From: Enoplolaimus lenunculus
Lineage: Eukaryota
Assembly: GCA_030248215.1 (NCBI GenBank)
Contig: JASANG010001414.1
Span: forward strand, 62,001 to 126,000
DNA: 64,000 nucleotides
Direction: 5' to 3'
Part shown: positions 1-42,900 of the stretch, one piece after another
Layout of the letters: the number at the start of each line of letters is the position of its first letter
Position numbering within the stretch: position 1 is the first letter of the stretch
Position numbers and translations under genes: made by a program
Notes under the pieces: generated by a model
Told to the model about the DNA's origin: nothing
The model's input: the letters and a program-made list of their open reading frames with translations, nothing else
Database searches by the model: none

Positions 1-2
1 GA

Positions 3-1217
3 GGAAGTGAATACATCTCAAGTGGTCGAAGTTTCTTAGTCCAGATCCGCCGCGACTATAAAATACCTCCTCGGCTCCAATGGTGCGATCCTCATTTTAG
101 GCGCGGATATATTATAATTCGGGCATGGTACCCGGGTATGGGTCGGTATTGTAAATCATGTTATAAATTTGGACATGAACAATTAGATTGTGTTGATTTT
201 CCTGCTTTGAACAACACTGAAGTGGACACGAACTCAGCTAAACAACAACAAGAAGAGCAAGAACCCAAACAACAGTCACAACAACAGCAGCAACAGAAAC
301 AACAAGTTCAACAACAACAATTACAACAACAACGGCAACAAATGAAAGCCGGGATAGACAAGGATCGCAGCAAGTTAAATACAAACAAGCAGTTTCTTGA
401 TATCAGTAACTTTATTATGGGGTTAATCAAAAATATTCAGTCCAGCATTAACAATGATATTATTGTGAGAGAACCATTAGCTTTAGTCATCAATGGAAAG
501 CTGGATTTGACTAAACTGCCAGAATCCGGGAAATCTTTTCTCAATTTTTCTGCTTGGTATAGATATTTGCATTTGAAACGATCGATGTCTCCGCCATTTC
601 ACCCTGAGGGTGAAGACGTTAAAACATTTTTTGATTCGAAACATCCAAGCAATTATCGTCTCTCGAATTTCCATGTTGACAATCCAGTATCTGTTTGGGG
701 CGAGTCTTTCTCATCTCCTGAAAAATTTGTCGCAGTGTGGAAGGCGAGATTCAGTGGTCGCAAAGATATCGAAGAGAAGGTTTGGGGAACAGACGATCCT
801 AAATCAATAAAATTTTTACATAGTCAGATAGTTTGGCCGGGCACAACGTTACATTATTTGTGTATCGTTTTCGAATTAATTTATACGATTTGTTTTGCAC
901 GAGCACAACAATGTGATGTGATTGGGCGCACACTATTGTCAACAGAGGGTCTATTGGTTGAGACTGTACCTGGGCCGGGGCCTTGGAGCTGCGGCCGTGG
1001 ACACTCCGATAATCGAGCTCAAAATAGAGTTACCTGGCGTCCTGGCAGTTTAAACTTAAATGGTGACTGTCAGACTCTTGTGCGAGAACACATTATGTTA
1101 CGAAAGGTGAGAACAGTAAGCACATCGTCTGATATATCTTCTCGCGTTACAGGTGTTAAGCGGTTGTATGAAGAGTCAGATGTGATTAGTGGCAAAAAGC
1201 CAAACATTGCAATGTGA
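3..1217 (+). CDS. ORF1 of L1/Tx1-clade non-LTR retrotransposon, 5'-partial (open to window edge): CCHC zinc knuckle, polyQ linker, C-terminal NADAR/YbiA-like domain
   Basis: Frame is open from base 3 (GSEYISSGRSFLVQIRRDYKIPPRLQW...IRAWYPGMGRYCKSCYKFGHEQLDC). The Y-x-G-x4-C-x2-C-x4-H-x4-C knuckle is typical of Tx1/L1 ORF1. It lies 54 nt upstream of an EN-RT ORF2. Residues encoded at 618-1094 follow NADAR motif order (LSNF, SPEK...WKARF, ARAQQ, LLST-LVE, WSCG, LNLNG...VRE). Confidence 0.88.
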   Translation, partial: GSEYISSGRSFLVQIRRDYKIPPRLQWCDPHFRRGYIIIRAWYPGMGRYCKSCYKFGHEQLDCVDFPALNNTEVDTNSAKQQQEEQEPKQQSQQQQQQKQQVQQQQLQQQRQQMKAGIDKDRSKLNTNKQFLDISNFIMGLIKNIQSSINNDIIVREPLALVINGKLDLTKLPESGKSFLNFSAWYRYLHLKRSMSPPFHPEGEDVKTFFDSKHPSNYRLSNFHVDNPVSVWGESFSSPEKFVAVWKARFSGRKDIEEKVWGTDDPKSIKFLHSQIVWPGTTLHYLCIVFELIYTICFARAQQCDVIGRTLLSTEGLLVETVPGPGPWSCGRGHSDNRAQNRVTWRPGSLNLNGDCQTLVREHIMLRKVRTVSTSSDISSRVTGVKRLYEESDVISGKKPNIAM

Positions 1218-1271
1218 ACGTGCATTTTTTTTTGTTTTACATGCCTTAAATTGATATGAAAGAGAGTCAAT

Positions 1272-4200
1272 ATGGATCTGCCAAATTTCTTTTCTTTTTC
1301 CAGTTTAAATTGCAGATCCATTAAGCATTTTCGAAAAGTGTCGATAGTTTTTGAAAGGATAAAAGATTTGGATTTGATTTGTCTGCAAGAGACACATTTT
1401 AAAAATAATTGGGATGCAGAGATTTTTGATAGAATTTTCTCACGCAATTTTAAAATATTTCACAGTTTCGGAAGCGAGGAGAATAGTAAAACAGGGGTAA
1501 CGGTCCTTATAAATAGGACAGCTCCTGTTGGTCAAATTGAAAACATTTTTAATATTCAGGGTAGGGCGGTCACGATTGCTTTTAGTATTGGTTCTCTTTC
1601 TTTTTTCTTAATTGGTATTTATGCTCCCGCGAACGGCGAGCAGCGAGTAGTTTTTTTCAACCAGCTGATGCAACAAGTGCAAAATTCGTTTTGGTTTGAT
1701 TATAAATGTGTTATTATGTTGGGTGATTTTAACTTAGTTGAGGACCCGGTTTTGGACCGATCACGGCCGTCATATGATCAGCAGCAAGGCCTGAGAGAGC
1801 TTTATTGTTTGAAGGAACTGTTGGTGATATCTGATGTTTTTAGGGAGACACATCCAAATAAAAACGACTTTTTTACTTTTCTTTCAGACATTCATGGAAG
1901 TCAGTCTCGTATAGATCGGATTTATATGCCGGCTTTTTTACAACCGGGCGCTTTGTGTACCGCTCGCGCAGTGAACAAGACAGATCATAGGTTGTTTAGA
2001 GTTAAGATTCGCTTACCTAATTTAAAGAGAGGTAAAGGATACTATAAGATGAATACAATGCTTTTGGGTGAAGTCGGCGTACAGACCTTTGTTTTAACGC
2101 GGCTCAAACATTTAATGAACATTTCCACAGGGTTTTCTATGATGTGGGAAGTATTTAAGGCTGATGTTAAAACCTTCTTTGTAAAGTTGGGTAAAAATAA
2201 AGCTAAGGAACGCGACATGTTGAGGAAATCATTAGAGAGCCAAGTTATTAATGTACAAATGCTGATAGGACAGTATCCAAACAATCCGAATCTCAGATCG
2301 GGTCTTAAAAAGCTAAAAAATGAAATCGAATTATTGAATGCATTTTATATTGCTTCTTGCAGGCATAATACGTACTACGGTAGTGAGGTAAATGACAACG
2401 CCTCTTTAGCAACAGTCAAGTCTCTTCAACGTAAGAACTGGGAAGCCAGGCATATAAGCTCGATCGAAAGGTCTGATGGCACGTTAGTAACAGACTCAGA
2501 TGCAGTTCTAGGTGAAATTACTGAGCAGTATTCCAACGTATTCAGATCGGAAGGGATAAGCGGAGAAGATCTCACTTTTTTTCTGGCACAAAATGGTCTT
2601 TCCAAGTTGAGTGAGGTGGAAAAAAATACTTTAGAGGGACCCATTACGTCAGTTGAAATAGCGAGCGCTATTAAATCTATGCAGGGTAAAAAGACGCCGG
2701 GATACGATGGTATTCCTGTTGAATTCTATTGGCTGTTTTGTGGAATATTATCTGAATTTTTGTGTAAAATGTATAACGCGTTCTTGGATGATCTTAAGCT
2801 CAATTTCTCCGCATATGATGGTGTTATTACCCTATTATATAAAGGGAATGGAAGGAAAACGTGTCGCGATAATTGGCGGCCAATTACGTTGCTGAATATA
2901 GATTATAAGATTTTTACGAAAGTTTTGGCAAAAAGATTAGAATCGGTCATGAAATCTTTAGTCCACCCGGATCAGACAAGCTCGGTTCCCGACAGAATTA
3001 TTCAAGACAGTGTTGCACATGTCATGTCTGTTATTCATTATGCCAATGAAAGCAACGCAAAGGCGTTGCTGCTATCAGTTGATCACAAAGCCGCTTTTGA
3101 TTTGGTGGAGTGGTCATTTATTTTTGAGACACTTAGGGTCATGAATTTTGGCGAAAACTTTTTAAACATGATCAAATGTATTTATAAACCCGGATGTACA
3201 AGATCATCTGTTATAGTTAATGGTTTTAAGTCAGAATTTTTTCATGTTTTGCGTGGAATTCGACAAGGGTGTCCCTTATCGCCGTCATTATATGTCATAA
3301 CAGCGGAAGTGGTAGCTCATTATCTTCGAATAACTTCAAGAATTTCGGGGATACCACTATACGGCATTAACACCCGAGTGACTAAGTTTGCCGACGACAC
3401 TAATATTTTTCTAAGTAGGATTTCAGATATAAGTGTGGTTTTTGATGTTTTTGAAAAATTTCAAAAGGCCTCTGGCAGCCGACTAAAGGAAACTAAAACA
3501 CAGATACTATTAATGGGCGATCTAAGGAACGCACTTGTACCCCATCAATATGCACGCTTTATTGTTGAAAGAGTGAAAATTTATGGCCTTTGGTTTGATT
3601 CAAAGGGACTCGATGTTCCTGAAAATTGGATAAAGTGCTATGAAGCAATTGCAAGTCTTGAACAGCGAATACCGCCCCGAGGTATCTCTGTTTTTGGAAA
3701 AATCCATCTTGTTCACATTTATTTTTTGTGTATGTTTAATTATTTGATAAAATTAGTAACACCCCCTGAGCAACTAGTGAAGGAAACTATCAATGTGGTT
3801 TATAAGTGGTTGTGGTACCCGTCCACCGCTAGTGTTATTAGAAGGGATATCCTGTTTTTACAACCTAGTCACGGCGGGATAAATTTCCCAAATATTTTTG
3901 TCAGACTGAAAGTGAATCGTTTAATGTTTTATATTCGAATATTAAGAGGTACCGAAGTTGTGAGTTGGAAGAGATGTTTCGAACATTTCTTTCGGCAAGT
4001 TCAGTTTTCGACTAAACGTCAACTGAGACGCATTGATGTACCGGAGTTATATAAAGAGATACGGATTGCAATGATTGAGTCATCTTTTAAAATGGATGGA
4101 AATTTTTGTTGGTTTTTTGGCGAAAAGTTATCCTTAAAAACAGTGTCGGCAAATAAATTGTATAAAATGTGGATACACGCTGTGTATAAGGGACTCATGC

Positions 4201-4805
4201 ATCCTAAACATGTTTTTTGGCGAGACGAGCTAGGAGTTGAACCTATTTTTGTCGAGCGATCATGGATATGGGCAAAAGCGAAATATGTTGACGGCTCTGC
4301 GCGAGACGTCCATTTTAGGTTAAGACACAAGTCATTGTATACTAATCACCGCACTAGTCATTTTACAGATGGGACAAATATATGTTCGTTTTATTTGGAT
4401 GGAATTGAAGTGCGGGAGGATAATGTTCATGTGTTTATTTATTGTTTGCGGGCGCAAGAAATTAGTTTTTTCATTACTCCCGTTTTGCAACAGGTAGCTG
4501 GAGTAAATGAAATAACGATTTCGGATTTAATTTTGGGACGAAATATTCACGACCCATTAAAGAGAATAGCTTTTAATTTCATCGTCCAACATGCACAATT
4601 GGCAATATGGAGTGCTCGATGTAAACTCGAGTGTAACAATGAAAATGTCTGTGTTGTTGATGTTTTTCAGGAAAATGTTTATAGAAATTTGTGCAAACTT
4701 AAGCTGTATCTAAAAGAAGAATGTTTTTTTAAGGTTTTTGGAACAATAACCCGACAGAATGATAGCATGCTGGGTTTTCGAATGTCTTTTTCTCAGCGTA
4801 CCTGA
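1272..4805 (+). CDS. ORF2 of L1/Tx1-clade LINE: APE endonuclease + reverse transcriptase + C-terminal Cys/His region
   Basis: EN motifs SLNCRS, CLQETH, GIYAP, LGDFN, SRIDRIY, TDH. RT motifs KTPGYDG, WRPITLLNIDYKI, DHKAAFD, GIRQGCPLSP, FADD. Uninterrupted 1177 aa. Confidence 0.97.
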   Translation: MDLPNFFSFSSLNCRSIKHFRKVSIVFERIKDLDLICLQETHFKNNWDAEIFDRIFSRNFKIFHSFGSEENSKTGVTVLINRTAPVGQIENIFNIQGRAVTIAFSIGSLSFFLIGIYAPANGEQRVVFFNQLMQQVQNSFWFDYKCVIMLGDFNLVEDPVLDRSRPSYDQQQGLRELYCLKELLVISDVFRETHPNKNDFFTFLSDIHGSQSRIDRIYMPAFLQPGALCTARAVNKTDHRLFRVKIRLPNLKRGKGYYKMNTMLLGEVGVQTFVLTRLKHLMNISTGFSMMWEVFKADVKTFFVKLGKNKAKERDMLRKSLESQVINVQMLIGQYPNNPNLRSGLKKLKNEIELLNAFYIASCRHNTYYGSEVNDNASLATVKSLQRKNWEARHISSIERSDGTLVTDSDAVLGEITEQYSNVFRSEGISGEDLTFFLAQNGLSKLSEVEKNTLEGPITSVEIASAIKSMQGKKTPGYDGIPVEFYWLFCGILSEFLCKMYNAFLDDLKLNFSAYDGVITLLYKGNGRKTCRDNWRPITLLNIDYKIFTKVLAKRLESVMKSLVHPDQTSSVPDRIIQDSVAHVMSVIHYANESNAKALLLSVDHKAAFDLVEWSFIFETLRVMNFGENFLNMIKCIYKPGCTRSSVIVNGFKSEFFHVLRGIRQGCPLSPSLYVITAEVVAHYLRITSRISGIPLYGINTRVTKFADDTNIFLSRISDISVVFDVFEKFQKASGSRLKETKTQILLMGDLRNALVPHQYARFIVERVKIYGLWFDSKGLDVPENWIKCYEAIASLEQRIPPRGISVFGKIHLVHIYFLCMFNYLIKLVTPPEQLVKETINVVYKWLWYPSTASVIRRDILFLQPSHGGINFPNIFVRLKVNRLMFYIRILRGTEVVSWKRCFEHFFRQVQFSTKRQLRRIDVPELYKEIRIAMIESSFKMDGNFCWFFGEKLSLKTVSANKLYKMWIHAVYKGLMHPKHVFWRDELGVEPIFVERSWIWAKAKYVDGSARDVHFRLRHKSLYTNHRTSHFTDGTNICSFYLDGIEVREDNVHVFIYCLRAQEISFFITPVLQQVAGVNEITISDLILGRNIHDPLKRIAFNFIVQHAQLAIWSARCKLECNNENVCVVDVFQENVYRNLCKLKLYLKEECFFKVFGTITRQNDSMLGFRMSFSQRT

Positions 4806-6320
4806 TTTGTAGTTTGTTTTGAAACTAGGTTTCTTGTGTGCTTTTTAACATATTTGCTCTGAATAATATCCTTGCAAGCAGAGTAGAATAATGGGTAATT
4901 TTCAAGGACCTTTGTTATGTTGTGATAATATGTTGTTGTGCCAAAATTGTCAGAAATTGACCACATTGCTGTGTAGGTGTACGTGTTTCGCTCTATGTCA
5001 AAATGCATTCAATAATTTATTCTTAATTTCAACATTTAATTTCGAATAAACAAGTTTGTAGATATAGTTGCTGTAAGTGCTGCCACAGTAGAGCACCTGA
5101 AATAGTGCCATGTAAGCAAATTTTTGAAGTAGTCAAACTTTTAAGCATGCGTCAATAAAAACTATCCCTCTCTGACATAAAGATTCATAGTCTATTTTAT
5201 TCTATGTGACGTCATAAACCGATAGCGATTGAAGATTTTTCCCTGCAGCCTTGCTCGAATGAGAATTTAGTTACGCATAAGCACTTATTTCAAACCAGAA
5301 TTCGAACCGCATCCTCAGAGCGCAGCGGCGTTCATTTTGCCGTTCGTAATCACACTTTGTGTTTACCATTAGACGGTTATGTATTTGGTAGTTCATTTTT
5401 AGTTCTTTCGTTTGTTTCGCGACCAATTAACATTCTTCTCCGGTAAAATCTGCTAACAGGTTAGTCTAGCGAATTAGCTCCTCTTACTCTTAGCCATCCC
5501 TTTATTAACCAATCCCAATAAATTAAAAAATTCAAACAGAACAGCGAAAAGACACCGCAACAATAAATATCAACAAACGGAAAAACTGAATTGCCATTTA
5601 CCATTTGTTTTGACCTCTGCCAGAGTGCCATAAGTAATTCTACACAAAATACGGGAATATTTCAAAACCCGGGCTTCATAAAAAACGACCGCGCTTCATT
5701 TCTAATTTGAAACTCTGGAGTATAAACATCAACTTTAATTTGAATATCACAAAATTGAAAATATTTATAGTGGAAAGGGTTATACGCATAATCGAGCTAA
5801 TACGCATCAGATATTCTCCGTCATCAGGCACATCAAAAGTTTGCTACATATTTGTAAAACAGTGCCATACTTTGGCGATTGCCATAAAATTATACCATAT
5901 TTGCGCTGCTTCAGTACTACTTTGTTTCTCGTTACCGAACAGATACACGTGGCTACAAGCAATTCAGTTGCCAACAGAACGCAATAATATTGATGACAGC
6001 AGTGTCTATTACTATTTTCATTTTCCGCCTTGAACGCTAGTTTTGTACGCTGAAAATAATCGACAGTGCCAAAAATATAGCAATACAATTACCGAACACC
6101 TCACACTTATACTCCGATCCGTTAAATGAAAATCTACGTCCTTTTGAATCATATTTCTAACCAAGTATTGTTTCTGCCAACAAAAAACACATTAAAAACT
6201 CAAACTATTATTTGTTTAGATTCTCGATTTTTATAACACAATTTTTTCAAATAACACGAATTTATCTACTGCTAAACAAACAGCGCACATACATTCTACT
6301 GTAACTTTGTTGTAAACATC

Positions 6321-12300: not shown

Positions 12301-15125
12301 CTCGAAGCTATAATCTCTGGAAAAGAAAAACTCTTACAACCACATGTCAATGTGTACAAGTGATTGGAAAAGAACTTTTTTCTAGTATACCTCTGCAGTT
12401 TGAAATGTTGCTCCCAGCTTAACATAACTAGTCTAATTAAAACCACTCACTAAAACGTGCCAAACATTTTCGTTAGCGCCTTCAAACGAGCAGAATCTAA
12501 TAGAAACACCCAACAGACCTTGACCACCCCAATTACGTGAAGGAGTTATCTGTGTTTCTCGCACTGTTTGCGATTTACTATTATAAACTGTTATTTTCAA
12601 CGGTTTGTCAGTATAATTTTTCAAATAATCTTTGAACGTATCATCGTCTTTGTCCTAAAATATTAAATTTAAAAATTCAAAGTTCTGAAGCCATTCAGTA
12701 CATAATGAAATTCTAATTATATATTGCAGCTATGATCGCAAAAATGAAATTTAACATGTAATGAATATACTTTTAAATTTAAATTTGACGTTTAAAACAG
12801 CAAATAATTCAATATCCTGCCACTTCACTGACTAAACAAAATCTTTGAAAATATATGTTTTCTTAAACGTCGAAGTATGTATACGGAAAAGATACGCTGC
12901 ACTAAGCTGTTGCACATGTCGAATTGAGCAGGGATGGGTGGTCTCAGTTAAAAAACGAGACTGAGACCGAGACTAACTACCGACACCGGCCATAAAAAGT
13001 CTCGGCCTGGGTCAATTTTTGGTCATCACCGTAAAAAATTAAAATTTTCAAAATAAATTATTGAGCGAAGCGAAGTTCGGAGTTTCGCGAAGCGTTTTAT
13101 GTTTTGTACTTGGGGTCGAAAGGTGGATATGCGTCCGTCCGTCTGTCCGTCCGAAAAGAATCTCAGGATCCGCTGAACCGATTTTGACAAACTTTTTTGT
13201 TTGAAAGCCAATTATCTTGGGGTGTTAACCTCGCGTTGGAGTTTTAAAAGTGCAAGCCGTTTAGTAGCTACAGGCTAATTTGCATAATTTATTAAGCCTA
13301 AATTAGGACTTTCCACAATATTTCACTAATTATTACAGTTAGAAGCAATCTAATATTAGAAATAAAGGTTTTTGGGTGCGAGGAATCTGCGTAGACTGTT
13401 TACAAACCTCCAAAACCGATACTTGAGCAGCTAGCTAATAGATAATTTGCATATTAGTATAGTTTATAAGCCTAAATTAGGACTTTTTAAGTATTTCATA
13501 ATTATTATGGTTAAAAGCAAAAATTGAAAAAAAGGGTTTTTAGGTGAGGAGTTTGAATAAATAGTTTACAAACATCCAAAACCGATAATTGAATAGTTAG
13601 CTAATGGCTAATTTGCATATTAGCTTAATTGACAAGAGAAAATTAGGACTTTTTAAATTATTTCAATAATCCTTAGGGTTTACTGAAGGTTTTTTTGGTG
13701 CGAGGAATCTGAATAAATTGTTTACAACCCTCCAAAACCGATAATTTAGTAGCTAGCTAATAGATAATTTGCATATAAGCATATTGATAAGCCTAAATTA
13801 GGCGTTTTTACAATGTTTCACTAATTATTAGGTTAAAGAACTAATTCACAAAAGGGTTTTGGGTGGAGGAACTAATAAATCACCTACAAACCTTTAAAAG
13901 CGATTATCGAATAGTTAGCTAATGGCTAATTTTCATATTTGCTTAATTGACGAGACAAAATTAGGACTTTTTAAATTATTTTAATAATTATTAGGGTGGC
14001 TGAAGGGTTTTTGGGTGCGAGGAATCTGAGGAAATTGCTTAAAAACCTCCAAAACCGATATATGAATAGTTAGCTAATAACTAATTTGCATATTACCTTA
14101 ATTGCAGCTTACATGTGTTCGAGCTTCGCTCAATAAATGTAGTCCCACTACGACTGGTTTCTAATGGGCTCTTCGCAGTTTTTTGTGTTTTTCATAGTTG
14201 TTTTGTGTTTTTCAGAACATCTGCTTATAATTATTGCATAACTATGAAAATTCATAGATTCACAGCGGAATTTTATTTATCAGATATCACTTACTACAAT
14301 ATAGTGGTATATTTGCTGAATTATCAACGTCCGGTCTCAGTTCCATAAACCTCCAAGACCGAGACCAAGACTCCCATCCCTCGACTTGACCACATAAAAG
14401 CATAAACATGAATTACCAAACGTTGATTTTCAACAGCTACAATAAAATCGAAGAACGCTTCAAGCCCAGCACCTTCTCCCGGAGAACCATCTTGAACCTA
14501 CATCCAAATAAAACTAGTTTCCTTTCATATCTGATTTACAGCCTAACAAACTCTGTGGAACGGTTTAAAATTCACAGAAAAATAAATACATAAATAAATA
14601 AAATATATATTATATATCAAGGTAGTATATTTCATTAAACAAATTTCTGCAATACAACTCTGATCCGAGTGCAAGCTATGTCACGTTACTAACGTTTTCT
14701 ACGCAGGCATAACAATATCAGGGTATATATCAGGGATATATCTAGTTCCGGTTTAATATCCGACATCCGTATACGGAACATAAAAACGTTTTAGAGTGGA
14801 AATACTAGGTATGTTTTGTGACTGCATTTCCGAGAAAGTTTAGTAGCTTAAGTTTTTGACACTGAAGTAAAATGAAAAATCCAATATACATTTGCACCAC
14901 TCAAATATAAGGAAGTGTCCATACCAAAATTTTAGCCCATGCCGACTAGCCTACTCTTACTTTGAAAACGTGCCGATGCCGAACCGATGCCGATTTCAAT
15001 TTTTATTCGGTCGATGTTTTCACTTTTAGTTATTGAGTTTGAAATAAGTCACGATCACTCACCCTTAAAACATGATAACCCTCCGATCCACCACCGGGAA
15101 TTGGAACACTTTCACTTGAACCCAT
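6321..15125 (-). CDS. GORASP2: Golgi reassembly-stacking protein (GRASP55/GRASP65 family), multi-exon
   Basis: Exons with GT-AG borders: 15125-15063 [21 protein letters not shown]; 14497-14417 [27 protein letters not shown]; 12654-12451 ...[32 protein letters not shown]; 12037-11951 [29 protein letters not shown]; 11326-11224 [16 protein letters not shown]-rich tail exons at ~7944-7723 and 6659-6321. The expected exon near 11515-11620 is frameshifted; the 3' end is approximate. A single invertebrate GRASP is co-orthologous to GORASP1/2. Confidence 0.9.
7193..7414. mobile_element. Small TIR element nested in a degenerate CCGG-rich MITE (~7051-7626)
   Basis: ACTGTAGTCACCCGAATAAGAGGG is inverted to CCCTCTTATTCGGGTACCACAGT. 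Confidence 0.6.
7821..7876 (-). repeat. Coding (CAA/CAG)n polyglutamine tract in GORASP tail exon
   Basis: TGT/TGC triplet run on the + strand; reads [20 protein letters not shown]. Confidence 0.75.
10048..10660. mobile_element. Composite/nested hAT-like MITE fragments (TTCCGA and CCGGAA families)
   Basis: CAGGGTGTAACCGGAATTCCGATT at 10048 and CAGGGTGCAACTGG at 10308; homologous blocks recur at 63010-63477. Confidence 0.55.
10700..11145. repeat. Foldback/inverted-repeat element in GORASP intron
   Basis: Perfect 23-bp inverted repeat 10741-10763 / 10825-10847; 11020-11135 is a diverged inversion of 10780-10905. Confidence 0.65.
12929..14382. mobile_element. hAT-type MITE (GAGACC family) containing Helentron-like copy A
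   Basis: Starts CAGGGATGGGTGGTCTCAG and ends GACTCCCATCCCTC; degenerate TSD GAATTGAG / GACTTGAC (6/8). Confidence 0.72.
13058..14158 (+). mobile_element. Helentron-associated/DINE-1-like non-autonomous rolling-circle element, copy A
   Basis: Perfect 14-bp subterminal inverted repeat TTATTGAGCGAAGC (13058) / GCTTCGCTCAATAA (14123-14136). (GTCC/GTCT)n microsatellite at 13132-13153, internal ~160-bp tandem units, 3' hairpin GTAGT-CCC-ACTAC (14139-14151). Confidence 0.75.
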
Positions 15126-18906: not shown

Positions 18907-21900
18907 TAAGTTTAAGTCCGAAGCGCTCGTTTGCCGAACACCCCGGGTTTTATTAAAAGGATAAACCACATTTACATCAACGAAAGCAATTATATAAACC
19001 AAAGAAGGCAACAACATATTATCATAACATAACAAAGGTCCTTGAAAATTACCCATTATTCTACTCTGCTTGCAAGGATATTATTCAGAGCAAATATGTT
19101 AAAAAGCACACAAGAAACCTAGTTTCAAAACAAACTACAAATCAGGTACGCTGAGAAAAAGACATTCGAAAACCCAGCATGCTATCATTCTGTCGGGTTA
19201 TTGTTCCAAAAACCTTAAAAAAACATTCTTCTTTTAGATACAGCTTAAGTTTGCACAAATTTCTATAAACATTTTCCTGAAAAACATCAACAACACAGAC
19301 ATTTTCATTGTTAAACTCGAGTTTACATCGAGCACTCCATATTGCCAATTGTGCATGTTGGACGATGAAATTAAAAGCTATTCTCTTTAATGGGTCGTGA
19401 ATATTTCGTCCCAAAATTAAATCCGAAATCGTTATTTCATTTACTCCAGCTACCTGTTGCAAAAAGGGAGTAATGAAAAAACTAATTTCTTGCGCCCGCA
19501 AACAATAAATAAACACATGAACATTATCCTCCCGCACTTCAATTCCATCCAAATAACAAAACGAACATATATTTGTCCCATCTGTAAAATGACTAGTGCG
19601 GTGATTAGTATACAATGACTTGTGTCTTAACCTAAAATGGACGTCTCGCGCAGAGCCGTCAACATATTTCGCTTTTGCCCATATCCATGATCGCTCGACA
19701 AAAATAGGTTCAACTCCTAGCTCGTCTCGCCAAAAAACATGTTTAGGATGCATGAGTCCTTTATACACAGCGTGTATCCACATTTTATACAATTTATTTG
19801 CCGACACTGTTTTTAAGGATAACTTTTCGCCAAAAAACCAACAAAAATTTCCATCCATTTTAAAAGATGACTCAATCATTGCAATCCGTATCTCTTTATA
19901 TAACTCCGGTACATCAATGCGTCTCAGTTGACGTTTAGTCGAAAACTGAACTTGCCGAAAGAAATGTTCGAAACATCTCTTCCAACTCACAACTTCGGTA
20001 CCTCTTAATATTCGAATATAAAACATTAAACGATTCACTTTCAGTCTGACAAAAATATTTGGGAAATTTATCCCGCCGTGACTAGGTTGTAAAAACAGGA
20101 TATCCCTTCTAATAATACTAGCGGTGGACGGGTACCACAACCACTTATAAACCACATTGATAGTTTCCTTCACTAGTTGCTCAGGGGGTGTTACTAATTT
20201 TATCAAATAATTAAACATACACAAAAAATAAATGTGAACAAGATGGATTTTTCCAAAAACAGAGATACCTCGGGGCGGTATTCGCTGTTCAAGACTTGCA
20301 ATTGCTTCATAGCACTTTATCCAATTTTCAGGAACATCGAGTCCCTTTGAATCAAACCAAAGGCCATAAATTTTCACTCTTTCAACAATAAAGCGTGCAT
20401 ATTGATGGGGTACAAGTGCGTTCCTTAGATCGCCCATTAATAGTATCTGTGTTTTAGTTTCCTTTAGTCGGCTGCCAGAGGCCTTTTGAAATTTTTCAAA
20501 AACATCAAAAACCACACTTATATCTGAAATCCTACTTAGAAAAATATTAGTGTCGTCGGCAAACTTAGTCACTCGGGTGTTAATGCCGTATAGTGGTATC
20601 CCCGAAATTCTTGAAGTTATTCGAAGATAATGAGCTACCACTTCCGCTGTTATGACATATAATGACGGCGATAAGGGACACCCTTGTCGAATTCCACGGA
20701 AAACATGAAAAAATTCTGACTTAAAACCATTAACTATAACAGATGATCTTGTACATCCGGGTTTATAAATACATTTGATCATGTTTAAAAAGTTTTCGCC
20801 AAAATTCATGACCCTAAGTGTCTCAAAAATAAATGACCACTCCACCAAATCAAAAGCGGCTTTGTGATCAACTGATAGCAGCAACGCCTTTGCGTTGCTT
20901 TCATTGGCATAATGAATAACAGACATGACATGTGCAACACTGTCTTGGATAATTCTGTCGGGAACCGAGCTTGTCTGATCCGGGTGGACTAAAGATTTCA
21001 TGACCGATTCTAATCTTTTTGCCAAAACTTTCGTAAAAATCTTATAATCTATATTCAGCAACGTAATTGGCCGCCAATTATCGCGACACGTTTTCCTTCC
21101 ATTCCCTTTATATAATAGGGTAATAACACCATCATATGCGGAGAAATTGAGCTTAAGATCATCCAAGAACGCGTTATACATTTTACACAAAAATTCAGAT
21201 AATATTCCACAAAACAGCCAATAGAATTCAACAGGAATACCATCGTATCCCGGCGTCTTTTTACCCTGCATAGATTTAATAGCGCTCGCTATTTCAACTG
21301 ACGTAATGGGTCCCTCTAAAGTATTTTTTTCCACCTCACTCAACTTGGAAAGACCATTTTGTGCCAGAAAAAAAGTGAGATCTTCTCCGCTTATCCCTTC
21401 CGATCTGAATACGTTGGAATACTGCTCAGTAATTTCACCTAGAACTGCATCTGAGTCTGTTACTAACGTGCCATCAGACCTTTCGATCGAGCTTATATGC
21501 CTGGCTTCCCAGTTCTTACGTTGAAGAGACTTGACTGTTGCTAAAGAGGCGTTGTCATTTACCTCACTACCGTAGTACGTATTATGCCTGCAAGAAGCAA
21601 TATAAAATGCATTCAATAATTCGATTTCATTTTTTAGCTTTTTAAGACCCGATCTGAGATTCGGATTGTTTGGATACTGTCCTATCAGCATTTGTACATT
21701 AATAACTTGGCTCTCTAATGATTTCCTCAACATGTCGCGTTCCTTAGCTTTATTTTTACCCAACTTTACAAAGAAGGTTTTAACATCAGCCTTAAATACT
21801 TCCCACATCATAGAAAACCCTGTGGAAATGTTCATTAAATGTTTGAGCCGCGTTAAAACAAAGGTCTGTACGCCGACTTCACCCAAAAGCATTGTATTCA

Positions 21901-22240
21901 TCTTATAGTATCCTTTACCTCTCTTTAAATTAGGTAAGCGAATCTTAACTCTAAACAACCTATGATCTGTCTTGTTCACTGCGCGAGCGATACACAAAGC
22001 GCCCGGTTGTAAAAAAGCCGGCATATAAATCCGATCTATACGAGACTGACTTCCATGAATGTCTGAAAGAAAAGTAAAAAAGTCGTTTTTATTTGGATGT
22101 GTCTCCCTAAAAACATCAGATATCACCAACAGTTCCTTCAAACAATAAAGCTCTCTCAGGCCTTGCTGCTGATCATATGACGGCCGTGATCGGTCCAAAA
22201 CCGGGTCCTCAACTAAGTTAAAATCACCCAACATAATAAC
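18907..22240 (-). mobile_element. L1/Tx1-clade LINE copy 2, 5'-truncated within the EN domain, apparently complete 3' end
   Basis: Reverse complement nearly identical to 1710-4938. It continues into a further 3'UTR with AATAAA (~18948-18953) and a short (CTTAAA)2 tail. The 5' junction is at 22240 (GTTATTATGTTGGGTGAT = VIMLGD). Confidence 0.93.
19142..22240 (-). pseudogene. 5'-truncated ORF2 (RT intact, EN N-terminus missing) of LINE copy 2
   Basis: Open frame matching ORF2 from VIMLGDFN to the stop. The first residues of the tracked ORF (MLDRVQP) come from flanking MITE/host DNA. Confidence 0.88.
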
Positions 22241-26000: not shown

Positions 26001-29000
26001 TTATCAAAACTATTGAATATTTTTATCTGCTTTGAATTGCCGCTTCATACAATTAAACTAATAAATCGTCGCCAAAATTTATTTTTTACTTTGTTTTTCA
26101 CTTGACTACTGTCGCCATACCATTCGAACAGGCTCGGGACAAATCACGCTGTCTCAACACAACCTCGGTTTAGTACCTAGTTAAAAGATATAATGTTGTT
26201 TTTGCTCCCGGGCAAACCGAAGAAACTGGATAACTTTTTAACATAGCGTGAGGTTTTTTAAGTTTCCTTTCAAAAACAGAATTCTGGGTAACCGGAGTTG
26301 TCATTCTGTTTCTCAAATCGCTGTATACCCAGGTGGCAGTGCTCCACAATCGTTCGCTGCCTGAGTTGGTAGGCGAAATGTGCAAGCACTTCCAGGCCAA
26401 AGCTGCGATCTAAGGAAATTTTTTTGTGATTCCTTATCGCTTTTTTGTCTTGGTTTGCAAACCACCGACCGAGACAGAAAAAATCGTGATTGAGACTGAG
26501 ACAAGCCAAATCCCGAAACTTGCCGAGACCGAGACCGCCCATCCCTGTACCGGAAATGCTGGGTTAGAGAATAGGCGCACTGTATTTTTGTAGCTAAGAA
26601 ATCCGCACAACCAATCAAGGGTGCCGGAAACATGCGAACAATATTTTATTTACCTACCAACGAATTTTTCTACGCTTTTAAGTCGCCGTTTTTCTTGCAT
26701 TTTTCCATGCAAACAAAGCGGATTTAAACCAAGACGCGACAGAATATTATGTAATCTACGAATGCCGTTGATGCTATTGGCAAATATTAGCGTACGACAA
26801 CGGAACTTGGTCAAAATGTAGTACAGCTTCGTATCCTGATTAAATACAAATGTCATCACAGCTAGCATCTTGCACTTGTTATTAGGCAATAGGCAAATAA
26901 CCAATAGATTTTCACCGGGACTCCGGTTCCTGCCGCAATTTGTGCAAAAACTAGATTCATATTTCGGTCAGTGTTTCAGCCTTAGAAAACTCAAGACTCG
27001 AAACTTTTTGTGCTTTTGTGACAAATCTCTCATAATTCTTAAAATACTAAAGTATTTGCAAAACACAAGCCATAAACCATAATTCTTCCATAAATGAATT
27101 TTTAAATCGTTTGTCTGAAAACTAAACATTTCACATTAATTTTGTTAGTTTTCAACCAAAATACAAGATATACCTTATCTTCGCAACTAGAGCAGTTTAA
27201 CCTTGCTTCAGTCACATTTTTTGCCAATGAGTTCTGCTCTGTCAAATCCACAACAATATGCTGTGATCGCATATTGAAAAAACTAACCAGATTTTCTATA
27301 AACAAAACAACACACGTCATAGCAATAAAACATGCAAAACTATTGAAAGATGTGCAAAATCTTAAATAGTAATTCTCGAACTAAATTCAGAAATAGTTTA
27401 TAAAACGTTAATTTAGATGCAACAAATTCGCAATGCAACACTACGTCACATTGCATTGGAAAAAGTTTGCGTTCTGAGTAAAGTTGCACGTTGAAGCAAT
27501 ATCGGAATACACAATTTGCAAACCAAACGTTTAATACATTGCAGTATGACACACCATATACCATGTAACACTATACTGAAATGTAAATAATTGATATTCA
27601 GAAAGAAAAAAGTAATAAAAAAAGTTATAAATTTTAAGGCTGATTAAAACATTAAAAAAGTTCCGCCAACCTATTTTATTTTCAGGAGTTCGATGCTGAA
27701 CTTTCTGCTTTGTTAACAGACGTTTTGGAGGAGGATGTACAAAACTAAGAGTTGCACTAAACACAAATGTTTGTCGCCGCCTGTTGCAATTCGGGTCACT
27801 GCAACAACTATGGCCTATGTCAATTATATGGGTTTGCCCATTGGGACAAGAAGACCAGTCCACTTAGAGAGTTAAAGATATAGGCTTGGAATTAGATTAA
27901 TGGCAGATCCAAAGGGGCTGCTTGGCTTAGGGTTGCGCAACTAAGATCAAAACCAAATTTTTGTAATTAAGGTTTAGCACTATAATTTCGATTGGCTTCC
28001 GTTTGCCAGCTTTTTTGCATTATAGCAAGCCCCTCTTTCAGAAATTTCTGGATCTGATACTGGGCTAGGCTTGGACTTCGGTTTTAGCTAGGCTTATTGG
28101 TTACGCCCTTTTAACATGACCTGCAGTTACAACTAGAATTAAATTACGTGCAGCCGTACACGTGTGCGATCGCAGGAGCACGCGAACACGCTGATAGTTA
28201 ACCGCGGACGAACATAACCGAGGGCTGTTATGTAATTTAACATTGATTTTATGTCAAGTATAAAATTGTCAGTTATGCTTATAGAAAGAACATTTTTGAC
28301 GCGAGTCTGCAAAGACATGCAGAAATCAGTAACCGCATCCATCTTGACTTGCGTGCGTCTGCCCATGAGAACTGAGCACTCTGTGAAAAAATAAAAACCT
28401 AACGTTTTACAACAATTATAAACAACATAAATAAACGCACATAATAAAATAAACAAATTCCAACTATAACCAATACAGTTTCTTATATTCAGACAGCGAA
28501 GCGTACCACTGGATATGTTCAAGAATATTCTGCAATTCAGGGAAGTGTCCACTTTCAACCATGCGATCTGTTTCATCGATAACAAGACATCGCATTTCGT
28601 GTAAGTTTTGCAAACTTGGCAGCTCCTATAGAAAAACGTAGTACTGAATACATTGGCCATGCAATAAAAAATAAAAGTACCCAAATGGTTAAACTTATTA
28701 AATGTTAAAATCATACCCGTGGCCAAAGTAAACGTCATGCTTACATCTTGCATCAAATCAAATAATCTTCCAGGAGTAGCAACTATGATATGCGGATCGC
28801 GCTTCAAAATCCGTTTCTGTTTTTCAATTGACAATCCGCCAATTACTGATGCTACCTATAATGAAATTTTTACGCCACTATTTAACTAACAGCCACTCAT
28901 GGAAATTAGCAAGCAACCATGTCGTGTTAGGTTGTATTCAGGAGACAAACGGAACTCCGATTCCGGTTAGAATTGCTATTCGAAACCAGTTCTGATTCCG

Positions 29001-37923: not shown

Positions 37924-38563
37924 TTATTGAACATTTCGCGATGTGTTTTATGTTTTGTACTCTGGGTGTCGAAAGGTGGAGATCTGTCTGTCCGTCTGTC
38001 CGTCCGAAAAGAATCTCAGGAACGGCCGAACAGATTTTGATAAACTTTTTTTGTTTGAAATCCAATTATGCTGGGCTGTTAACTTCGCATTGGGGTTTTA
38101 GACAGTTTATTAGCTACAGACTAATCTGCATAATTAGTTAAGCCTAAATTAGGCTTCCTGCATTATTTCTACAAACCTTTGAAACCGATAACTGAATAGT
38201 TAGCTAATAGCTAATTTGCATATTAGCATAATTGACAAGACAAAATTAAGACTTTTTAAATTATTAGGGTTACAAGCAATCTAATTTAGCAGTAATGGGT
38301 TTTTGGGTGCGAGGAATCTGAATAAATCACCTACAAACCTTTAAAAGCGATTATCGAATAGTTAGCTAATGGCTAATTTGCATATTTGCTTAACTGACGA
38401 GACAAATTGCTTAAAAACCTCCAAAACCGATATATGAATAGTTAGCTAATAACTAATTTGCATATTACCTTAATTGCTTACATGTGTTCGAGCTTCGCTC
38501 AATAAATTGTCTGCAAACCCTCAAAACCGATATTCGAATAGTTAGCTAATAGCTCATTTGCAT
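37924..38563 (+). mobile_element. Helentron/DINE-1-like element, copy B (rearranged, no 3' hairpin)
   Basis: Homologous to 13058-14158: GTCC microsatellite, AAGAATCTCAGG, ~160-bp units, TTCGAGCTTCGCTCAATAAA at ~38486-38505. Confidence 0.7.
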
Positions 38564-39931
38564 AGTTTGCACCAAGCAACAGAAACAACACCTTAGACTG
38601 GCTATGCTTAATATTCCAGCATATTTTTACACTCTGTGTGTTATACATAGTGCTTTAAAACTATAGGTACATCTACATAGCATGACAATATAGCTACAAT
38701 CAGTGTTGTTGAAGTAACTTGAAGGAAAAATTACAGCAGTAAAAAGCTGAATGAGGGTACCTGCGCAAAGACTTGTTTTTTAGATCACATTAAAATCGGC
38801 ATCCATTATTGCTGTTTAGATAACATAGAGCACACAACTCTCATTTAAATTATTGTACGTCGCTAACCAGTCTGTGATTACGTAGTTATGTCACGTAAAC
38901 CGCATTCAATTTTTTGAAGAGATATTTTGCAAAAACTTTAGTAAACGGTACACCGCTAAAACTATTGAAAACGGACAGGTTAGAACGGGTTAGCACATTT
39001 TTTGCCATGTTTGGGAAGTAAAATGAGGCCAAGATTATCTCATTTGGCCCACCAGTGCAGGAGTTTACCAAAAATGACAACAAATTCCGGGGGGATCAAA
39101 ATGTGAATTTTTGCAGTTATACCTTTAAGTCAAATTGTGAAGAATATGCTTAAAAATAATAAATTTACATATCAAAAAAATTTTAAAATTTTGCTGAAAC
39201 ATTTAAGTTCTTTTTACAAATTTTTTTCATCCGCAAATTGATATTTTAATTAAAGTATTTGACGCATGTTATTGTAAAATTTGGAAGACTGTTTAGTTTT
39301 AAAACGCAAAACAGTTAATGAACAACATATTTTGTTTTGAAGTGTCATCAGTTAACAGTATTTTGGCGGTGCAATAGATTCAAAATTCCTGTTTCGGTGA
39401 AAACATGATTTCCTTTCTCTGCTTCCTGTACAACACAGTTCTTGTTACAGAACCGTGTCCACATCTGCATTTGCTTAGTACATCTACAGTACTTACGTTT
39501 ACTTACTGACTAACGATTTTCAAAACATCTGCGTTTGTTGAAAGTCGGATGTATATGTTGTATATTGGTTTTTTCTTGTTGCAAATAACATTGTGGCACT
39601 ACTGCAAGGTTTTCTTTTTTAAACATAGGAGTGCTTTTTAAGTTCAGTGGATGTTTTTACAAAACTAGGTTAAAATCGTATTCCACAAGGCTTCTGACTG
39701 TGACTCGTGGTAAGAGAAATTGGGCTAGGCAAAATGTTGAGGGAGAAGTAAATTTTTGTACCTTCTAATTCATTATTGTGAGCATTGAAAAATTGCTAAG
39801 TATATACACACCTGATTTAGCGTATGTAGACGCATAAATTTGTGTACTGGTACCCTGTCTCGACTAGCAATTCACGGAAAATGGCGTAAATTTATTTTAA
39901 AAATCTGGAAATTGTAAATTCTGGTTTTTAG

Positions 39932-42900
39932 AACAAACGGTATGCCAACGAGTGGTTTCGGAGCTCACGAGCCAAGATATTGCTACGATCCTGCTGGATC
40001 ACCGGATACACAGTCGATATGTTCAGAGGATTCGTCATGCACACCACCTTATCTTAAATGGGCGGAAAGTTTACCACAGTTGTTGGATGATGCTGAAGGT
40101 AAATATGCAAAATACCGTAGCGGTTAACATCAAAGACTCTTAAATGTCATTTTAATGTTTTCGCGGCTCACAGAACTTCCTGTTATAAAAAGTTGGTATG
40201 AAAACAAAAATCTACTGTTGACACAAAAACGATACTTGTTAACTGTTTAAAACAACGATTGCTCAAAATTAATGTACTGTTTCTGCTTTTGTATTTAAGG
40301 CGTTTCTCTATTTGCCGAATATCTCATCGATGAAGAAGGCACCAAAAACGTTCTCGATTTTTGGTTCGCGTGCAAAGCATTAAAATCCGAAACAGTACCC
40401 GAAACCCTGGCGACATACGCTCGCCTCATATACGATAACTTCGTTTGTTCACGTGCTGAAAATCGTATTGCGGATTTGAAAACTGAAACACGGCAAGCAC
40501 TTGCACATCGGCTTAATTCAGCGTCGGCACCAGCGCCCGATGCAGGCATTCTTGATGCTGCGCAGTCGGAAGCGTACGCAATACTTGTCGTCAAGCATGC
40601 TGCATTTGTGCGCTCTGAACTTTACTTAACTTTCGTTCAAAATGCACAAGACACTGCGCTTGAACTGTATCACGCAGGAGTCAACGATTATGATTCACCG
40701 AAAATTTGGTCGGTGTCACAAAATTCGCCTACACAATTACAGCAGCAAATATCAGGAATGTTTGCGCACACTCCTAACGATCCTAGTGGTGCGATACCGG
40801 CTTATGATACGTCTGTGAACACTGGGTCCTGCTTACCGCTTGGTAGTGACATTGGCAGTGGTGAGACTGGTTTGTATACCAATGTGCCACAACAATCTAC
40901 TACGTATTTGCCTACAGTTGTGGAAGACATTGAAGAAGAAACGTGTTCACCACCGTTACGTACGCAACAAAATAATTCCTCTGGGATAGCCGATAGGAAA
41001 CTAGAAACATCGACAACTACAGCAACAAATGTTAAGCAACGACGTTGTTCACCAGAACCTAATTCAACCGATATCTGTGAACCTAGTTCAACTGATGTAC
41101 AGGTGTTTGCTACGGCCGAAGAAGTACGAAAATCAAATATACAAGAAGAGAACACTTCGGACACAGCTGCTCTAGGCGCATGTTGCTCTACAATATGTGT
41201 GAGGTCGTCCCAGCCACAGGGTGCCTCGGCTACAAATCACTCCGCACGGCCTCCTGCGGTTCCAGATCGTTCGACTAAGCCGTGCTATAACACACAGAGC
41301 AAAGGTATAACAGATTATTATGATGATGTGAACTTTGTTGATAAATTGCTTTTTATTTAGTAGGACGAATGTCCAAAGATTTGCCTATGCCGAATAAATT
41401 TATTTTGCAGAAATGCTAAGGGTAATACTAAATATATACGATGATTTTGTATTAACTTATTATTGAACGAAGCTATACTCCGAGCAATGCTCGGGCTTCA
41501 CGAAGTGTTTTATATTTTGTGCTCGAAGGTCAAAAGGTGGAGGTTCGTCCGGAAGGAATCTCAGAAACCGCCGAAACGATTTTGATAAACTTTTTTGGTT
41601 TGAAAGCCTGTTATCCTGGAGTGTTAACCTCGCATTGGTATTTTAAAATTTTAAGCCGTTCATTAGCTAAAGGCTAATTTGCATAATTGGTTAAGCTTAA
41701 ATAAGCCTAAATTAGTACTTTTTGTTCACTAATTATTAGGCGTACACGCAAACTAATTTCAGCAATAAATTGTTATGGGTTCGAGGAATCTGAATAAATT
41801 GTCTACAAACCTTCAGAAACGATAATTGAATGGTTACATAATAGCTAATTTGCATATTAGCATTTTTTAAGCCGAAATTAGGGCTTTTTGCAATATTTCA
41901 CTAATTTTTAGAGCTACTGGAGGATTTTTGGGTGCGATGGATGTGAGTAAATTGTTCACAAACCTCCAAGACCGATAAATGAATAGTTAACTAAAAACCA
42001 ATTCGCATATTAGCTTAATTGCTTAAGTATGTTCGAGCTTCACTCAATGCATGTAGTCCCACTACGACTGGTATACGTTTGTTTTGCATTGCGTGTTAAG
42101 GAGGCTATGCATATTTTGATGTAAAACTTTACAGCCTTCAATTGAAACAGATCAGTCGTATCACAACGCTGCGGGTTAAGGACATCTAAAGTGTGAGTAG
42201 ACCAGCTAAATCGTGGCTATATTTTTCGAGCGAAGCTCGGACTCAATGTGAATAGTTAGTTCGGTAATTCACGAGTACGTATTTTACTAATCTGCAAAAA
42301 TAGAAAATTTTGGCGAAACTCCGAGCTTCGTTCAATAAAGTTTCTGCTTTTTCGTATAAAACATTTGGTATTTGTCTACAACTTTGAATCTATTCGATTG
42401 GTTTTAGCAGTTTGTGCACTTGTTAATGTCAGTTCTGAAACGTCGACACATAACGCAGATAACAGTGCGCCGTCAACGACTACTTGCAGCAGTAGTACGA
42501 ACACCAGTTCTAATCAAGACTCTGCTCTAGCCGTTGTAACTGGATCTAATCTGCCTGCGAACTCTAGCCATCTTTCTACGCAACCACGATTTGCCAAAGT
42601 GAAACCGGGCGCGCAGTATACATTCAGTGTCATGAGAGCTGTACCGCATTCAGGTCGTTATAAGCCATCGTTATCTTCACAAATGTAAGTGGAAGCTTTC
42701 GGAACTTTTTTCGCTATGAAAACGTGGATCTAAATTGTAACTAACGTGCTGTACTCTTGTGGAAAATAAGTGCTGAACGAGATACCGATTAGCAATGTCA
42801 CATATTGTGCTCCGCATGGTTTATATTTCTATTTTTCAAATTTATTAATTCAATGAACCTGTATTCTTTGGTCTTTCGGCGCTATTTACTCATGTATATT

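What the first reader, a model, noticed from the sequence alone, without database searches (positions are those of the whole stretch)
618..1094. NADAR/YbiA-like domain fused to ORF1 of an L1/Tx1 retrotransposon
Seen: after the CCHC knuckle and polyQ linker, ORF1 encodes ~160 aa: FFDS...LSNF...PVSVWGESFSSPEKFVAVWKARF...EEKVWGTDDPKSIK...ARAQQCDVIGRTLLST..LVE...WSCG...GSLNLNGDCQTLVREHI. By eye, against my recollection of E. coli YbiA, this matches block for block, in order and with similar spacing (FYS..FSNF..PIKVDGKTWPTSEHYFQAQKF..EEIRRVSSP..AKFEQHAELRALLLAT..LVE..WGDG..GKNRLG..LMELREQL). Known: NADAR proteins are N-glycosidases. YbiA/RibX acts on riboflavin intermediates, and DarT1-associated NADARs remove ADP-ribose from guanine in DNA; they also occur in phages and some RNA viruses. 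Usual LINE ORF1 accessory domains are RRM, CCHC, PHD and esterase. Inference: this young element carries its own ADP-ribose eraser or reader in the RNP protein, possibly countering host ADP-ribosylation of its RNA/cDNA or of RNP proteins. I do not know a characterised LINE with this architecture, but cannot exclude database precedents.
Basis: partly seen in the sequence, partly recalled or inferred. Interest (0 to 1): 0.92.

Follow-up and report, generated by a model that had tools for sequence, protein, structure and literature searches.

The report
Remodelled NADAR domain on LINE ORF1
A recently copied jumping gene in an animal genome has, fused to its RNA-coating protein, a domain from an enzyme family that elsewhere strips ADP-ribose off DNA and RNA bases; it keeps the three cutting residues but has an altered binding pocket, so it likely still cleans chemical marks off the element's own nucleic acid (untested), and this kind of fusion was noted once in print for oyster elements.

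Summary
ORF1 (3-1217) of a two-ORF L1-superfamily LINE ends in a NADAR domain (618-1094): Pfam E 6e-7 over 161 of 163 positions, below the curated cut-off; predicted fold matches solved NADARs at Z 16.5 and 14.4. It is not a one-off: 8 of 21 close relatives carry the same zinc knuckle upstream, and an unrelated contig has NADAR-ORF1 directly before an endonuclease ORF2. The element is young (second copy 99.66% identical). The catalytic Glu-Lys-Glu is kept; the phosphate-binding Arg79 and Asp130 are lost across a retroelement-linked clade (Asp130 in 0 of 20 rows against 44 of 47 outside). Best reading (0.45): an N-glycosidase that removes ADP-ribose from the element's RNA or cDNA. A non-catalytic binder is the main rival (0.3). 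No activity was tested. The architecture is not new: PMC12477816 (2025) notes NADAR in ORF1 of oyster Tx1 LINEs, and this scan noted it on other DNA (15 findings, at least 4 genomes). What is added here is the clade-wide remodelled pocket. Tx1 membership could not be tested.

The parts
3..1217 (+). ORF1, 404 aa in the window, 5' part cut off by the window edge
   Evidence: homologous at both ends to the complete 575-aa ORF1 P0183 (45% over aa 1-65, 33% over the NADAR)
150..191 (+). single CCHC zinc knuckle (aa 50-63)
   Evidence: read directly from the translation; aligned in relatives
246..344 (+). polyglutamine linker (aa 82-114), absent from aligned relatives
381..617 (+). helical extension before the NADAR core (aa 127-205), shared with relatives; last two helices predicted with confidence
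   Evidence: alignment; model pLDDT 52-72 for aa 122-161 and 76-94 for aa 162-201, pTM 0.87
618..1094 (+). NADAR (YbiA-fold) domain, aa 206-364
720..722 (+). Glu240 = YbiA Glu48 / Phytophthora NADAR Glu43, ribose-binding, kept
   Evidence: role from PMC11543638
741..743 (+). Lys247 = YbiA Lys55 / Phytophthora Lys50, phosphate-binding and essential, kept
   Evidence: role
819..824 (+). His273-Ser274 in place of the Gly78-Arg79 phosphate-binding motif
960..962 (+). Glu320 = YbiA Glu125, the catalytic glutamate, kept
   Evidence: role
975..977 (+). Pro325 in place of Asp130
1158..1199 (+). KR-x10-KK motif at the ORF1 end, like a bipartite nuclear localisation signal (motif definition recalled; untested)
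   Evidence: similar motif in 10 of 21 relatives, no shuffle control
1272..4805 (+). ORF2, 1177 aa: AP-type endonuclease (about 1347-1934), reverse transcriptase (about 2865-3563), C-terminal Cys/His knuckle lacking one Cys in this copy
4806..4938 (+). 3' untranslated part shared with the second copy; no poly(A); true 3' end unresolved
19009..22240 (-). second, 5'-truncated copy of the element (matches 1710-4938), 99.66% identical, no ORF1

Best explanation
This is a young two-ORF LINE whose ORF1 protein ends in a NADAR-fold domain that keeps the three catalytic residues but has a remodelled phosphate pocket, and it likely works as an N-glycosidase that removes ADP-ribose from bases of the element's own RNA or new cDNA. 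Shown: the fusion, the fold (predicted), the residues kept and lost, the spread of the fusion in other genomes. Inferred from known LINE biology: ORF1p coats the element's RNA in many copies through its RNA-binding domains and knuckle, so the NADAR is held at high local concentration on single-stranded nucleic acid. Inferred from the C-terminal KR-x10-KK motif: the protein goes to the nucleus, where target-primed reverse transcription happens. Inferred from characterised NADARs: it cuts the bond between ADP-ribose and guanine or cytosine, an adduct that would block reverse transcriptase. The lost Arg79 and Asp130 and the added helical extension would shift specificity or lower affinity for free ADP-ribose, with tethering to the RNA making up for it. 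Which enzyme writes the mark (a host transferase or a microbial one) is not known.
For: Glu240, Lys247 and Glu320 align with the residues whose mutation abolishes or impairs guanine-ADP-ribose hydrolysis (PMC11543638 passages; PMC12945103 section 2.5; phage AdfN E36A and K43A, bioRxiv 2024.07.11.602962 passages). Across 22 clade rows only 23-43% identical to this domain, Glu125 is kept in 20 of 20 rows with a letter, Glu48 in 16 of 18, Lys/Arg55 in 18 of 18, Ser30 in 17 of 17, Trp133 in 18 of 20; Glu125 is one of only 5 fully invariant columns of 171. All four E. coli and phage NADAR subtypes tested hydrolyse guanine-ADP-ribose in vitro (PMC11125620 section 2.1), a sponge NADAR does so too and RNA is a substrate. 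T4 gp30.3, shown active in that paper, appears to lack Asp130 and Trp133 (weak alignment there), so loss of Asp130 need not kill activity. Fold: Z 16.5, rmsd 2.5 A over 161 residues to 8bau.
Against: Arg79 (3 of 19 clade rows; 36 of 47 outside) and Asp130 (0 of 20; 44 of 47 outside) are gone, Trp89 is Tyr and position 93 is Val here; these contact the pyrophosphate in the ADP-ribose co-crystal. T4 gp30.3 keeps Arg79. This copy sits on a long branch (1.26 versus 0.54 for its sister) and departs from its own clade at 7 conserved columns, such as Lys104 to Arg and Asn to Cys at aa 297. It scores under the Pfam cut-off while its nearest full-length relatives pass. No ADP-ribosyltransferase acting on this element is known; my one search linking LINE-1, ORF1p and ADP-ribosylation listed 6 of 7 papers, none by title or abstract start on ADP-ribosylation of retrotransposon nucleic acid. 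Conserved acidic residues could also serve binding alone.
Confidence: 0.45

Rival explanations
1. The domain is a non-catalytic or weakly catalytic binder: it would hold RNA, ADP-ribosylated nucleic acid or poly(ADP-ribose) and so help to package the RNA or to steer the particle to nicked DNA.
For: Loss of Arg79, Asp130, Trp89 and Arg93; long branch and sub-cut-off score; two clade members have Gln at Glu48; a nematode protein with three NADAR domains acts in trans-splicing (stated in PMC11125620). Earlier scan notes report LINE NADARs that lost catalytic residues (not checked by me).
Against: The residues kept most strictly are the catalytic ones, and those lost are the ligand-binding ones; a pure reader would be expected to show the reverse.
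Confidence: 0.3
2. It is an active glycosidase for a substrate other than base-linked ADP-ribose, such as an RNA end structure, a damaged base or a small nucleotide, and would process the transposition intermediate.
For: The catalytic set is kept while the pyrophosphate clamp is changed in the whole clade; YbiA itself cleaves riboflavin intermediates and authors note flexible recognition (PMC11543638 discussion); PMC12477816 proposes RNA processing for TE NADARs.
Against: Lys55 and Trp133, which also bind the pyrophosphate, are kept. No alternative substrate is indicated by any search.
Confidence: 0.18
3. The domain is a passenger with no function for the element, or the fusion is a one-off chimera or assembly error.
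For: The second copy in the window lacks ORF1, so it cannot confirm the fusion. No whole genome was available. The NADAR diverges faster than ORF2 (33% versus 44-51% for the P0183/P0003 pair).
Against: Open frame with catalytic residues kept at 23-43% identity; knuckle-plus-NADAR in 8 of 21 relatives; NADAR-ORF1 next to an endonuclease ORF2 on contig L001; contigs of 3 runs (1 study, perhaps the source of the window) cover the domain with one synonymous difference and one bridges ORF1 into ORF2.
Confidence: 0.05

Closest known systems
YbiA-family NADAR in ORF1 of Tx1 LINE families of Crassostrea gigas (Repbase; one paragraph and Fig. S2 of PMC12477816, Genome Biol 2025)
   Same: NADAR domain within ORF1 of an L1-superfamily LINE; function unknown.
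   Different: In the passages I saw the paper gives no active-site analysis, clade or test.
NADAR at the N-terminus of Pol in lineage IV Gypsy elements of Ectocarpus (PMC12477816)
   Same: A retrotransposon protein carrying a YbiA-family NADAR.
   Different: LTR element, Pol fusion, described as highly conserved and closest to bacterial NADARs; here a diverged clade on ORF1.
Phytophthora nicotianae NADAR (PDB 8BAU) and E. coli YbiA (PDB 2B3W)
   Same: Same fold (Z 16.5 and 14.4); Glu43/48, Lys50/55, Glu125, Trp133 kept.
   Different: Stand-alone enzymes; they keep Gly78-Arg79, Trp89 and Asp130, which are replaced here; 17-18% identity.
DarT1-linked NADAR antitoxins (DarG1, PDB 8BAT) and phage gp30.3/AdfN counter-defence NADARs
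   Same: Fold (Z 7.4 to 8BAT); AdfN is the functional model of a mobile element carrying a lone eraser against host ADP-ribosylation.
   Different: Last-strand residue is Asp (DarG1) or His (phage), Glu here; no transferase partner in the element.
Type I ORF1 proteins (RRM plus CCHC) and accessory ORF1 domains PHD and esterase (PMC4120745 passages)
   Same: Knuckle preceded by an RNA-binding-like region; an added C-terminal module as with esterase ORF1s.
   Different: NADAR is not among the domains in the passages and Table 1 that I saw; single knuckle, polyQ linker.

Membership tests
NADAR superfamily (YbiA fold) | YbiA fold: helical core flanked by small sheets | tested here: met
   Model pLDDT 87.9; Z 16.5/rmsd 2.5/161 aligned to 8bau, 14.4/2.9/154 to 2b3w, 7.4/4.0/144 to 8bat, next 3.6. 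The alignment used held canonical NADARs, so the fold is not independent of it; a profile of the domain and 9 clade relatives alone hits 8bau at E 1.8e-8.
NADAR superfamily (YbiA fold) | Full-length profile similarity to NADAR | tested here: met
   PF08719 E 6.2e-7, positions 2-162 of 163; shuffle control; 60 of 62 homologues carry PF08719.
NADAR superfamily (YbiA fold) | Conserved Ser, Glu and Lys of the substrate channel | tested here: met
   Ser221, Glu240, Lys247.
NADAR superfamily (YbiA fold) | N-glycosidase activity on base-linked ADP-ribose | not testable with these tools
   Needs an enzyme assay.
Canonical YbiA-type enzyme (PF08719 / TIGR02464 as curated) | Score at or above the curated cut-off | tested here: not met
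   30.3 versus 35.1 bits; 28.1 versus 73.7. 55 of 62 homologues pass the Pfam cut-off.
Canonical YbiA-type enzyme (PF08719 / TIGR02464 as curated) | Glutamate in the last strand (Glu125), which marks the YbiA family against BC4488 (Asp) and phage (His) | tested here: met
   Glu320; criterion.
Canonical YbiA-type enzyme (PF08719 / TIGR02464 as curated) | Pyrophosphate clamp Arg79, Trp89, Arg93, Asp130, Trp133 | tested here: not met
   Only Trp133 kept; Ser274, Tyr285, Val289, Pro325 at the others. One small alignment put Trp278 at Trp89; the larger ones did not.
DarG1 / BC4488 NADAR antitoxin | Aspartate in the last strand and an adjacent DarT transferase | tested here: not met
   Glu at that site; neighbours are the ORF1 knuckle and ORF2.
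L1-superfamily LINE | Two ORFs; ORF2 with AP-type endonuclease, RT and C-terminal Cys/His knuckle, closest to L1 | tested here: met
   human L1 ORF2 E 5e-79 versus R2 E 2e-9; knuckle complete in the second copy and in relatives.
Tx1 clade of L1 | RT groups with named Tx1 elements | not testable with these tools
   No named Tx1 reference among 57 ORF2 homologues; the tree places the element with 3 unnamed relatives at support 99.
Tx1 clade of L1 | Target-site specificity (common in Tx1, recalled) | tested here: inconclusive
   Two insertions in the window, no clear target duplication, different 3' flanks, 3' end unresolved.
Type I ORF1 (RRM + CCHC) | CCHC knuckle directly after one or more RRM domains | tested here: inconclusive
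   Knuckle present. The RRM region is mostly outside the window; the same region of P0183 has Atlas look-alikes among CCHC, RRM and ZCCHC3 RNA-binding clusters at 0.85-0.91, a lead only.

The most novel reading that the evidence does not exclude
A retroelement-specific NADAR subfamily with a rebuilt phosphate pocket is an active counter-defence: animals ADP-ribosylate the bases of retrotransposon RNA or cDNA by an undescribed pathway, and LINEs (and at least one LTR-type Pol, P0197) carry and exchange an eraser against it, as T4-like phages carry AdfN against DarTG1.
Probability: 0.2. Interest if true: 0.9.

Novelty: new variant of a known kind. Interest (0 to 1): 0.5.

Why it matters
What animal NADARs act on is open, and PMC12945103 says endogenous guanine or cytosine ADP-ribosylation in eukaryotes may exist undiscovered. 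A selfish element that has kept the catalytic residues over deep divergence points to such a substrate in the retrotransposition cycle. This element is young, with both frames open and a second copy 99.66% identical, so it gives a direct test: enzyme assay plus a retrotransposition reporter with and without Glu320. If the eraser reading holds, it implies a new host defence against transposons. If not, it is an accessory ORF1 module already mentioned in print.

Tried and rejected
No whole genome held, so no genome-wide copy count or dN/dS. Word-based homologue search with aa 180-375: 0 of 91 candidates scored; phmmer over all representatives then found 62. Single-domain phmmer against PDB sequences gave only chance hits, best E 0.26. 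Single-sequence AlphaFold: pLDDT 32, discarded. Viral contigs: 0 of 6 candidate stretches encode a relative. Clade alignment too diverged for locus scans. Prokaryote genomes with P0181: 1 of 38 stretches, a 31-residue match to its tail at E 2e-4, judged chance, not followed; so no donor of the domain is identified. ORF2 scan of metagenomes gave only 23-33% relatives; 1 of the 80 loci kept (of 98) has a NADAR, and many are short or lack upstream DNA. No RNA holder listed: no evidence on expression. Read depth is not used as a copy number. Whether the second insertion is polymorphic, and where the element's 3' end lies, stay open. A third, esterase-like gene, reported by earlier notes for other families, is not seen: no further + strand ORF of 80 aa or more in 1-4805, spacer of 54 bases; the element's 5' part is outside the window. 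Literature: NADAR+retrotransposon (140 papers, 20 listed), NADAR domain+LINE+ORF1 (1), NADAR+non-LTR+ADP-ribose (1), YbiA/retrotransposon/ORF1 (20 of 1,247 listed; only PMC12477816 holds YbiA), NADAR+transposable element+horizontal (7; two checked were the name Nadar). Only PMC12477816 describes the architecture. Subscription papers, de Souza and Aravind 2012, Repbase and Dfam were not searchable. No complex prediction was run, as no binding claim is made.

Full report
What is there. Window 3-1217 (+) is an open frame of 404 aa running off the window's 5' edge; 1272-4805 is a 1177-aa frame with AP-type endonuclease (Pfam E 1.4e-6) and reverse transcriptase (E 2.8e-32). Its best solved relative is human L1 ORF2 (E 5e-79; R2 proteins E 2e-9 or weaker). 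The host is likely an animal: an RGS-domain exon lies at 40299-41360, and the genes are in short exons. A second copy at 19009-22240 (-) is 5'-truncated and 99.66% identical over 3232 bases, so the family has copied itself recently. ORF1 holds a CCHC knuckle (aa 50-63), a polyQ linker, a helical stretch, the domain in question (aa 206-364) and a basic tail.

The domain is a NADAR. Pfam PF08719 matches positions 2-162 of 163 at E 6.2e-7, 30.3 bits, under the cut-off of 35.1. TIGR02464 (E 2.1e-6) and the ESM Atlas (top clusters NADAR, 0.93) agree. By tblastn, 8 of 8 plasmid hits are annotated NADAR and the best phage hits are COG3236 proteins (E 1e-4). Against my profile of 126 canonical NADARs it scores 18.2 bits; the best of 2000 shuffles scores 7.0. 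phmmer over 1.84 billion representatives gave 62 hits; 60 carry Pfam NADAR and 55 pass the cut-off. A profile of the domain and 9 clade relatives, with no canonical NADAR in it, finds Phytophthora NADAR (E 1.8e-8) and YbiA (E 2e-7) as the only significant PDB sequences. AlphaFold with a 53-row alignment gave pLDDT 87.9, pTM 0.87. It matches 8bau at Z 16.5 (rmsd 2.5, 161 aligned), 2b3w at 14.4 and 8bat at 7.4; the next row is 3.6 (Foldseek agrees). That alignment included canonical NADARs, so the fold supports but is not independent of the sequence result. Against: pairwise BLASTP to YbiA is not significant and the single-sequence model failed.

The fusion is real and old. Contigs of three runs (at most 2 samples, 1 study, possibly the window's own source, so not independent) cover the domain; the only listed difference inside it is silent (C1007T), and one contig bridges 977-1277 from ORF1 into ORF2. 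In a tree of 64 domains (rows under 120 aa left out), this one falls in a 17-row clade at 99/94 support. Of 21 relatives (16 in that clade, 5 fragments assigned by similarity), 8 have a CCHC knuckle upstream; many of the rest are N-terminally cut. P0183 is a complete 575-aa ORF1 of the same build. Direct linkage is seen on L001 (PJEL010111433.1): an ORF1 end with NADAR (47.6 bits) followed by an endonuclease ORF2 30% identical to this one. It is 1 of 80 loci scanned. One clade member, P0197, carries the domain after RT and RNase H of an LTR-type Pol.

The active site is half kept. Numbering follows YbiA, fetched from the K-12 record. In the ADP-ribose co-crystal, Glu43 and Glu125 hold the distal ribose, and Lys50, Arg79, Trp89, Arg93, Trp133 and Asp130 hold the pyrophosphate; mutating the equivalents of Glu125, Lys50 and Glu43 impairs hydrolysis or rescue (PMC11543638, passages and discussion part 1). 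Glu125 is essential in SCO5665 too (PMC12945103, sections 2.5 and 3). Here Glu240, Lys247, Glu320, Ser221 and Trp328 are kept; Gly78-Arg79 is His-Ser, Trp89 is Tyr, position 93 is Val, Asp130 is Pro. The pattern is clade-wide. Among rows with a letter: Glu125 20 of 20, Glu48 16 of 18, Lys/Arg55 18 of 18; Asp130 0 of 20 (44 of 47 outside), Arg79 3 of 19 (36 of 47 outside). These rows are kin, so this may be one ancient loss, not 20. T4 gp30.3, active in vitro (PMC11125620, parts 1-2 of 6 read), appears to lack Asp130 but keeps Arg79 (weak alignment). This copy is also more diverged than its sister rows (branch 1.26; 7 departures from clade consensus).

How it most likely works. From established LINE biology (recalled, and PMC4120745 passages) ORF1p coats the element's RNA. 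The NADAR would thus sit in many copies on single-stranded nucleic acid. The tail has KR-x10-KK, like a bipartite nuclear signal, and 10 of 21 relatives have a similar motif (no control; several misses are truncated). Strict retention of the catalytic residues at 23-43% identity argues for chemistry rather than binding alone. I therefore favour an N-glycosidase that removes ADP-ribose from guanine or cytosine of the RNA template or new cDNA (0.45), in the way that phage AdfN erases DarT1 marks. Rivals: a non-catalytic binder (0.3), a glycosidase for another substrate (0.18), a passenger or artefact (0.05). Guanine-modifying transferases exist in animals (pierisin, CARP-1; listed's table and one search's listing), but nothing ties them to this element.

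What is known. PMC12477816 (passages; supplement legend) reports YbiA-family NADAR in Ectocarpus Gypsy Pol and in ORF1 of several C. gigas Tx1 families, and suggests RNA processing. Its Fig. S2 alignment is an image that I could not see and may bear on whether the oyster domains belong to this clade. Five other searches found no further description (see Tried and rejected). This scan's own notes hold 15 similar findings in at least 4 genomes, none in this genome and none by sequence look-alike; they are unchecked and not counted as support.

Verdict. It is a NADAR-superfamily domain by fold and catalytic residues, not a canonical YbiA enzyme by cut-off or pocket. The architecture is in print in one paragraph; the clade-wide remodelled pocket, the shared helical extension and tail motif, and the LTR-type member are not in anything I found. 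New variant of a known kind; interest 0.5.

Noticed in passing
window 4390 and 1471, 3251, 3834, 4633: This copy's ORF2 lacks one codon (a Cys of the C-terminal knuckle) and has four private amino-acid differences against the laid contigs (three of them also against the second copy); it may be a slightly decayed copy or carry assembly errors.
   Followed up: partly
window 4938 and 19008 downwards: No poly(A) tail; the shared part ends in short TTG repeats. Loose ends at 4938 in two runs resemble the second copy's 3' flank, which has an AATAAA about 60 bases on, so the true 3' end may run further than in copy 1.
   Followed up: partly
run X1, loose ends at window 1986, 2439, 4199, 4891: The loose letters look like a template-switching cDNA adaptor (recalled), so this run, guessed as DNA, may be a cDNA library.
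   Followed up: no
protein P0197: LTR-type Pol fragment (RT, RNase H) followed by a NADAR of the same Asp130-less clade, but keeping Gly78-Arg79: the module may have moved between retroelement orders.
   Followed up: partly
proteins P0207, P0215, P0221, P0225, P0237: Other ORF1-like proteins (by eye: coiled coil plus L1-like RNA-binding region, or knuckle type) carry more canonical NADARs elsewhere in the tree, hinting at several separate captures; Pfam did not name their N-terminal parts.
   Followed up: partly
window 1289-1303: A strong pyrimidine tract ending in CAG lies in the first codons of ORF2, like a splice acceptor; no joint to it was listed.
   Followed up: no
window 13069-14158, 37934-38570, 41483-42072: Three arrays of a diverged repeat, 70-85% alike.
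   Followed up: no
window 40299-41360 (+) and 28139-28855 (-): Host exons: an RGS domain (Axin-like by eye) and a DEAD-box helicase fragment.
   Followed up: partly
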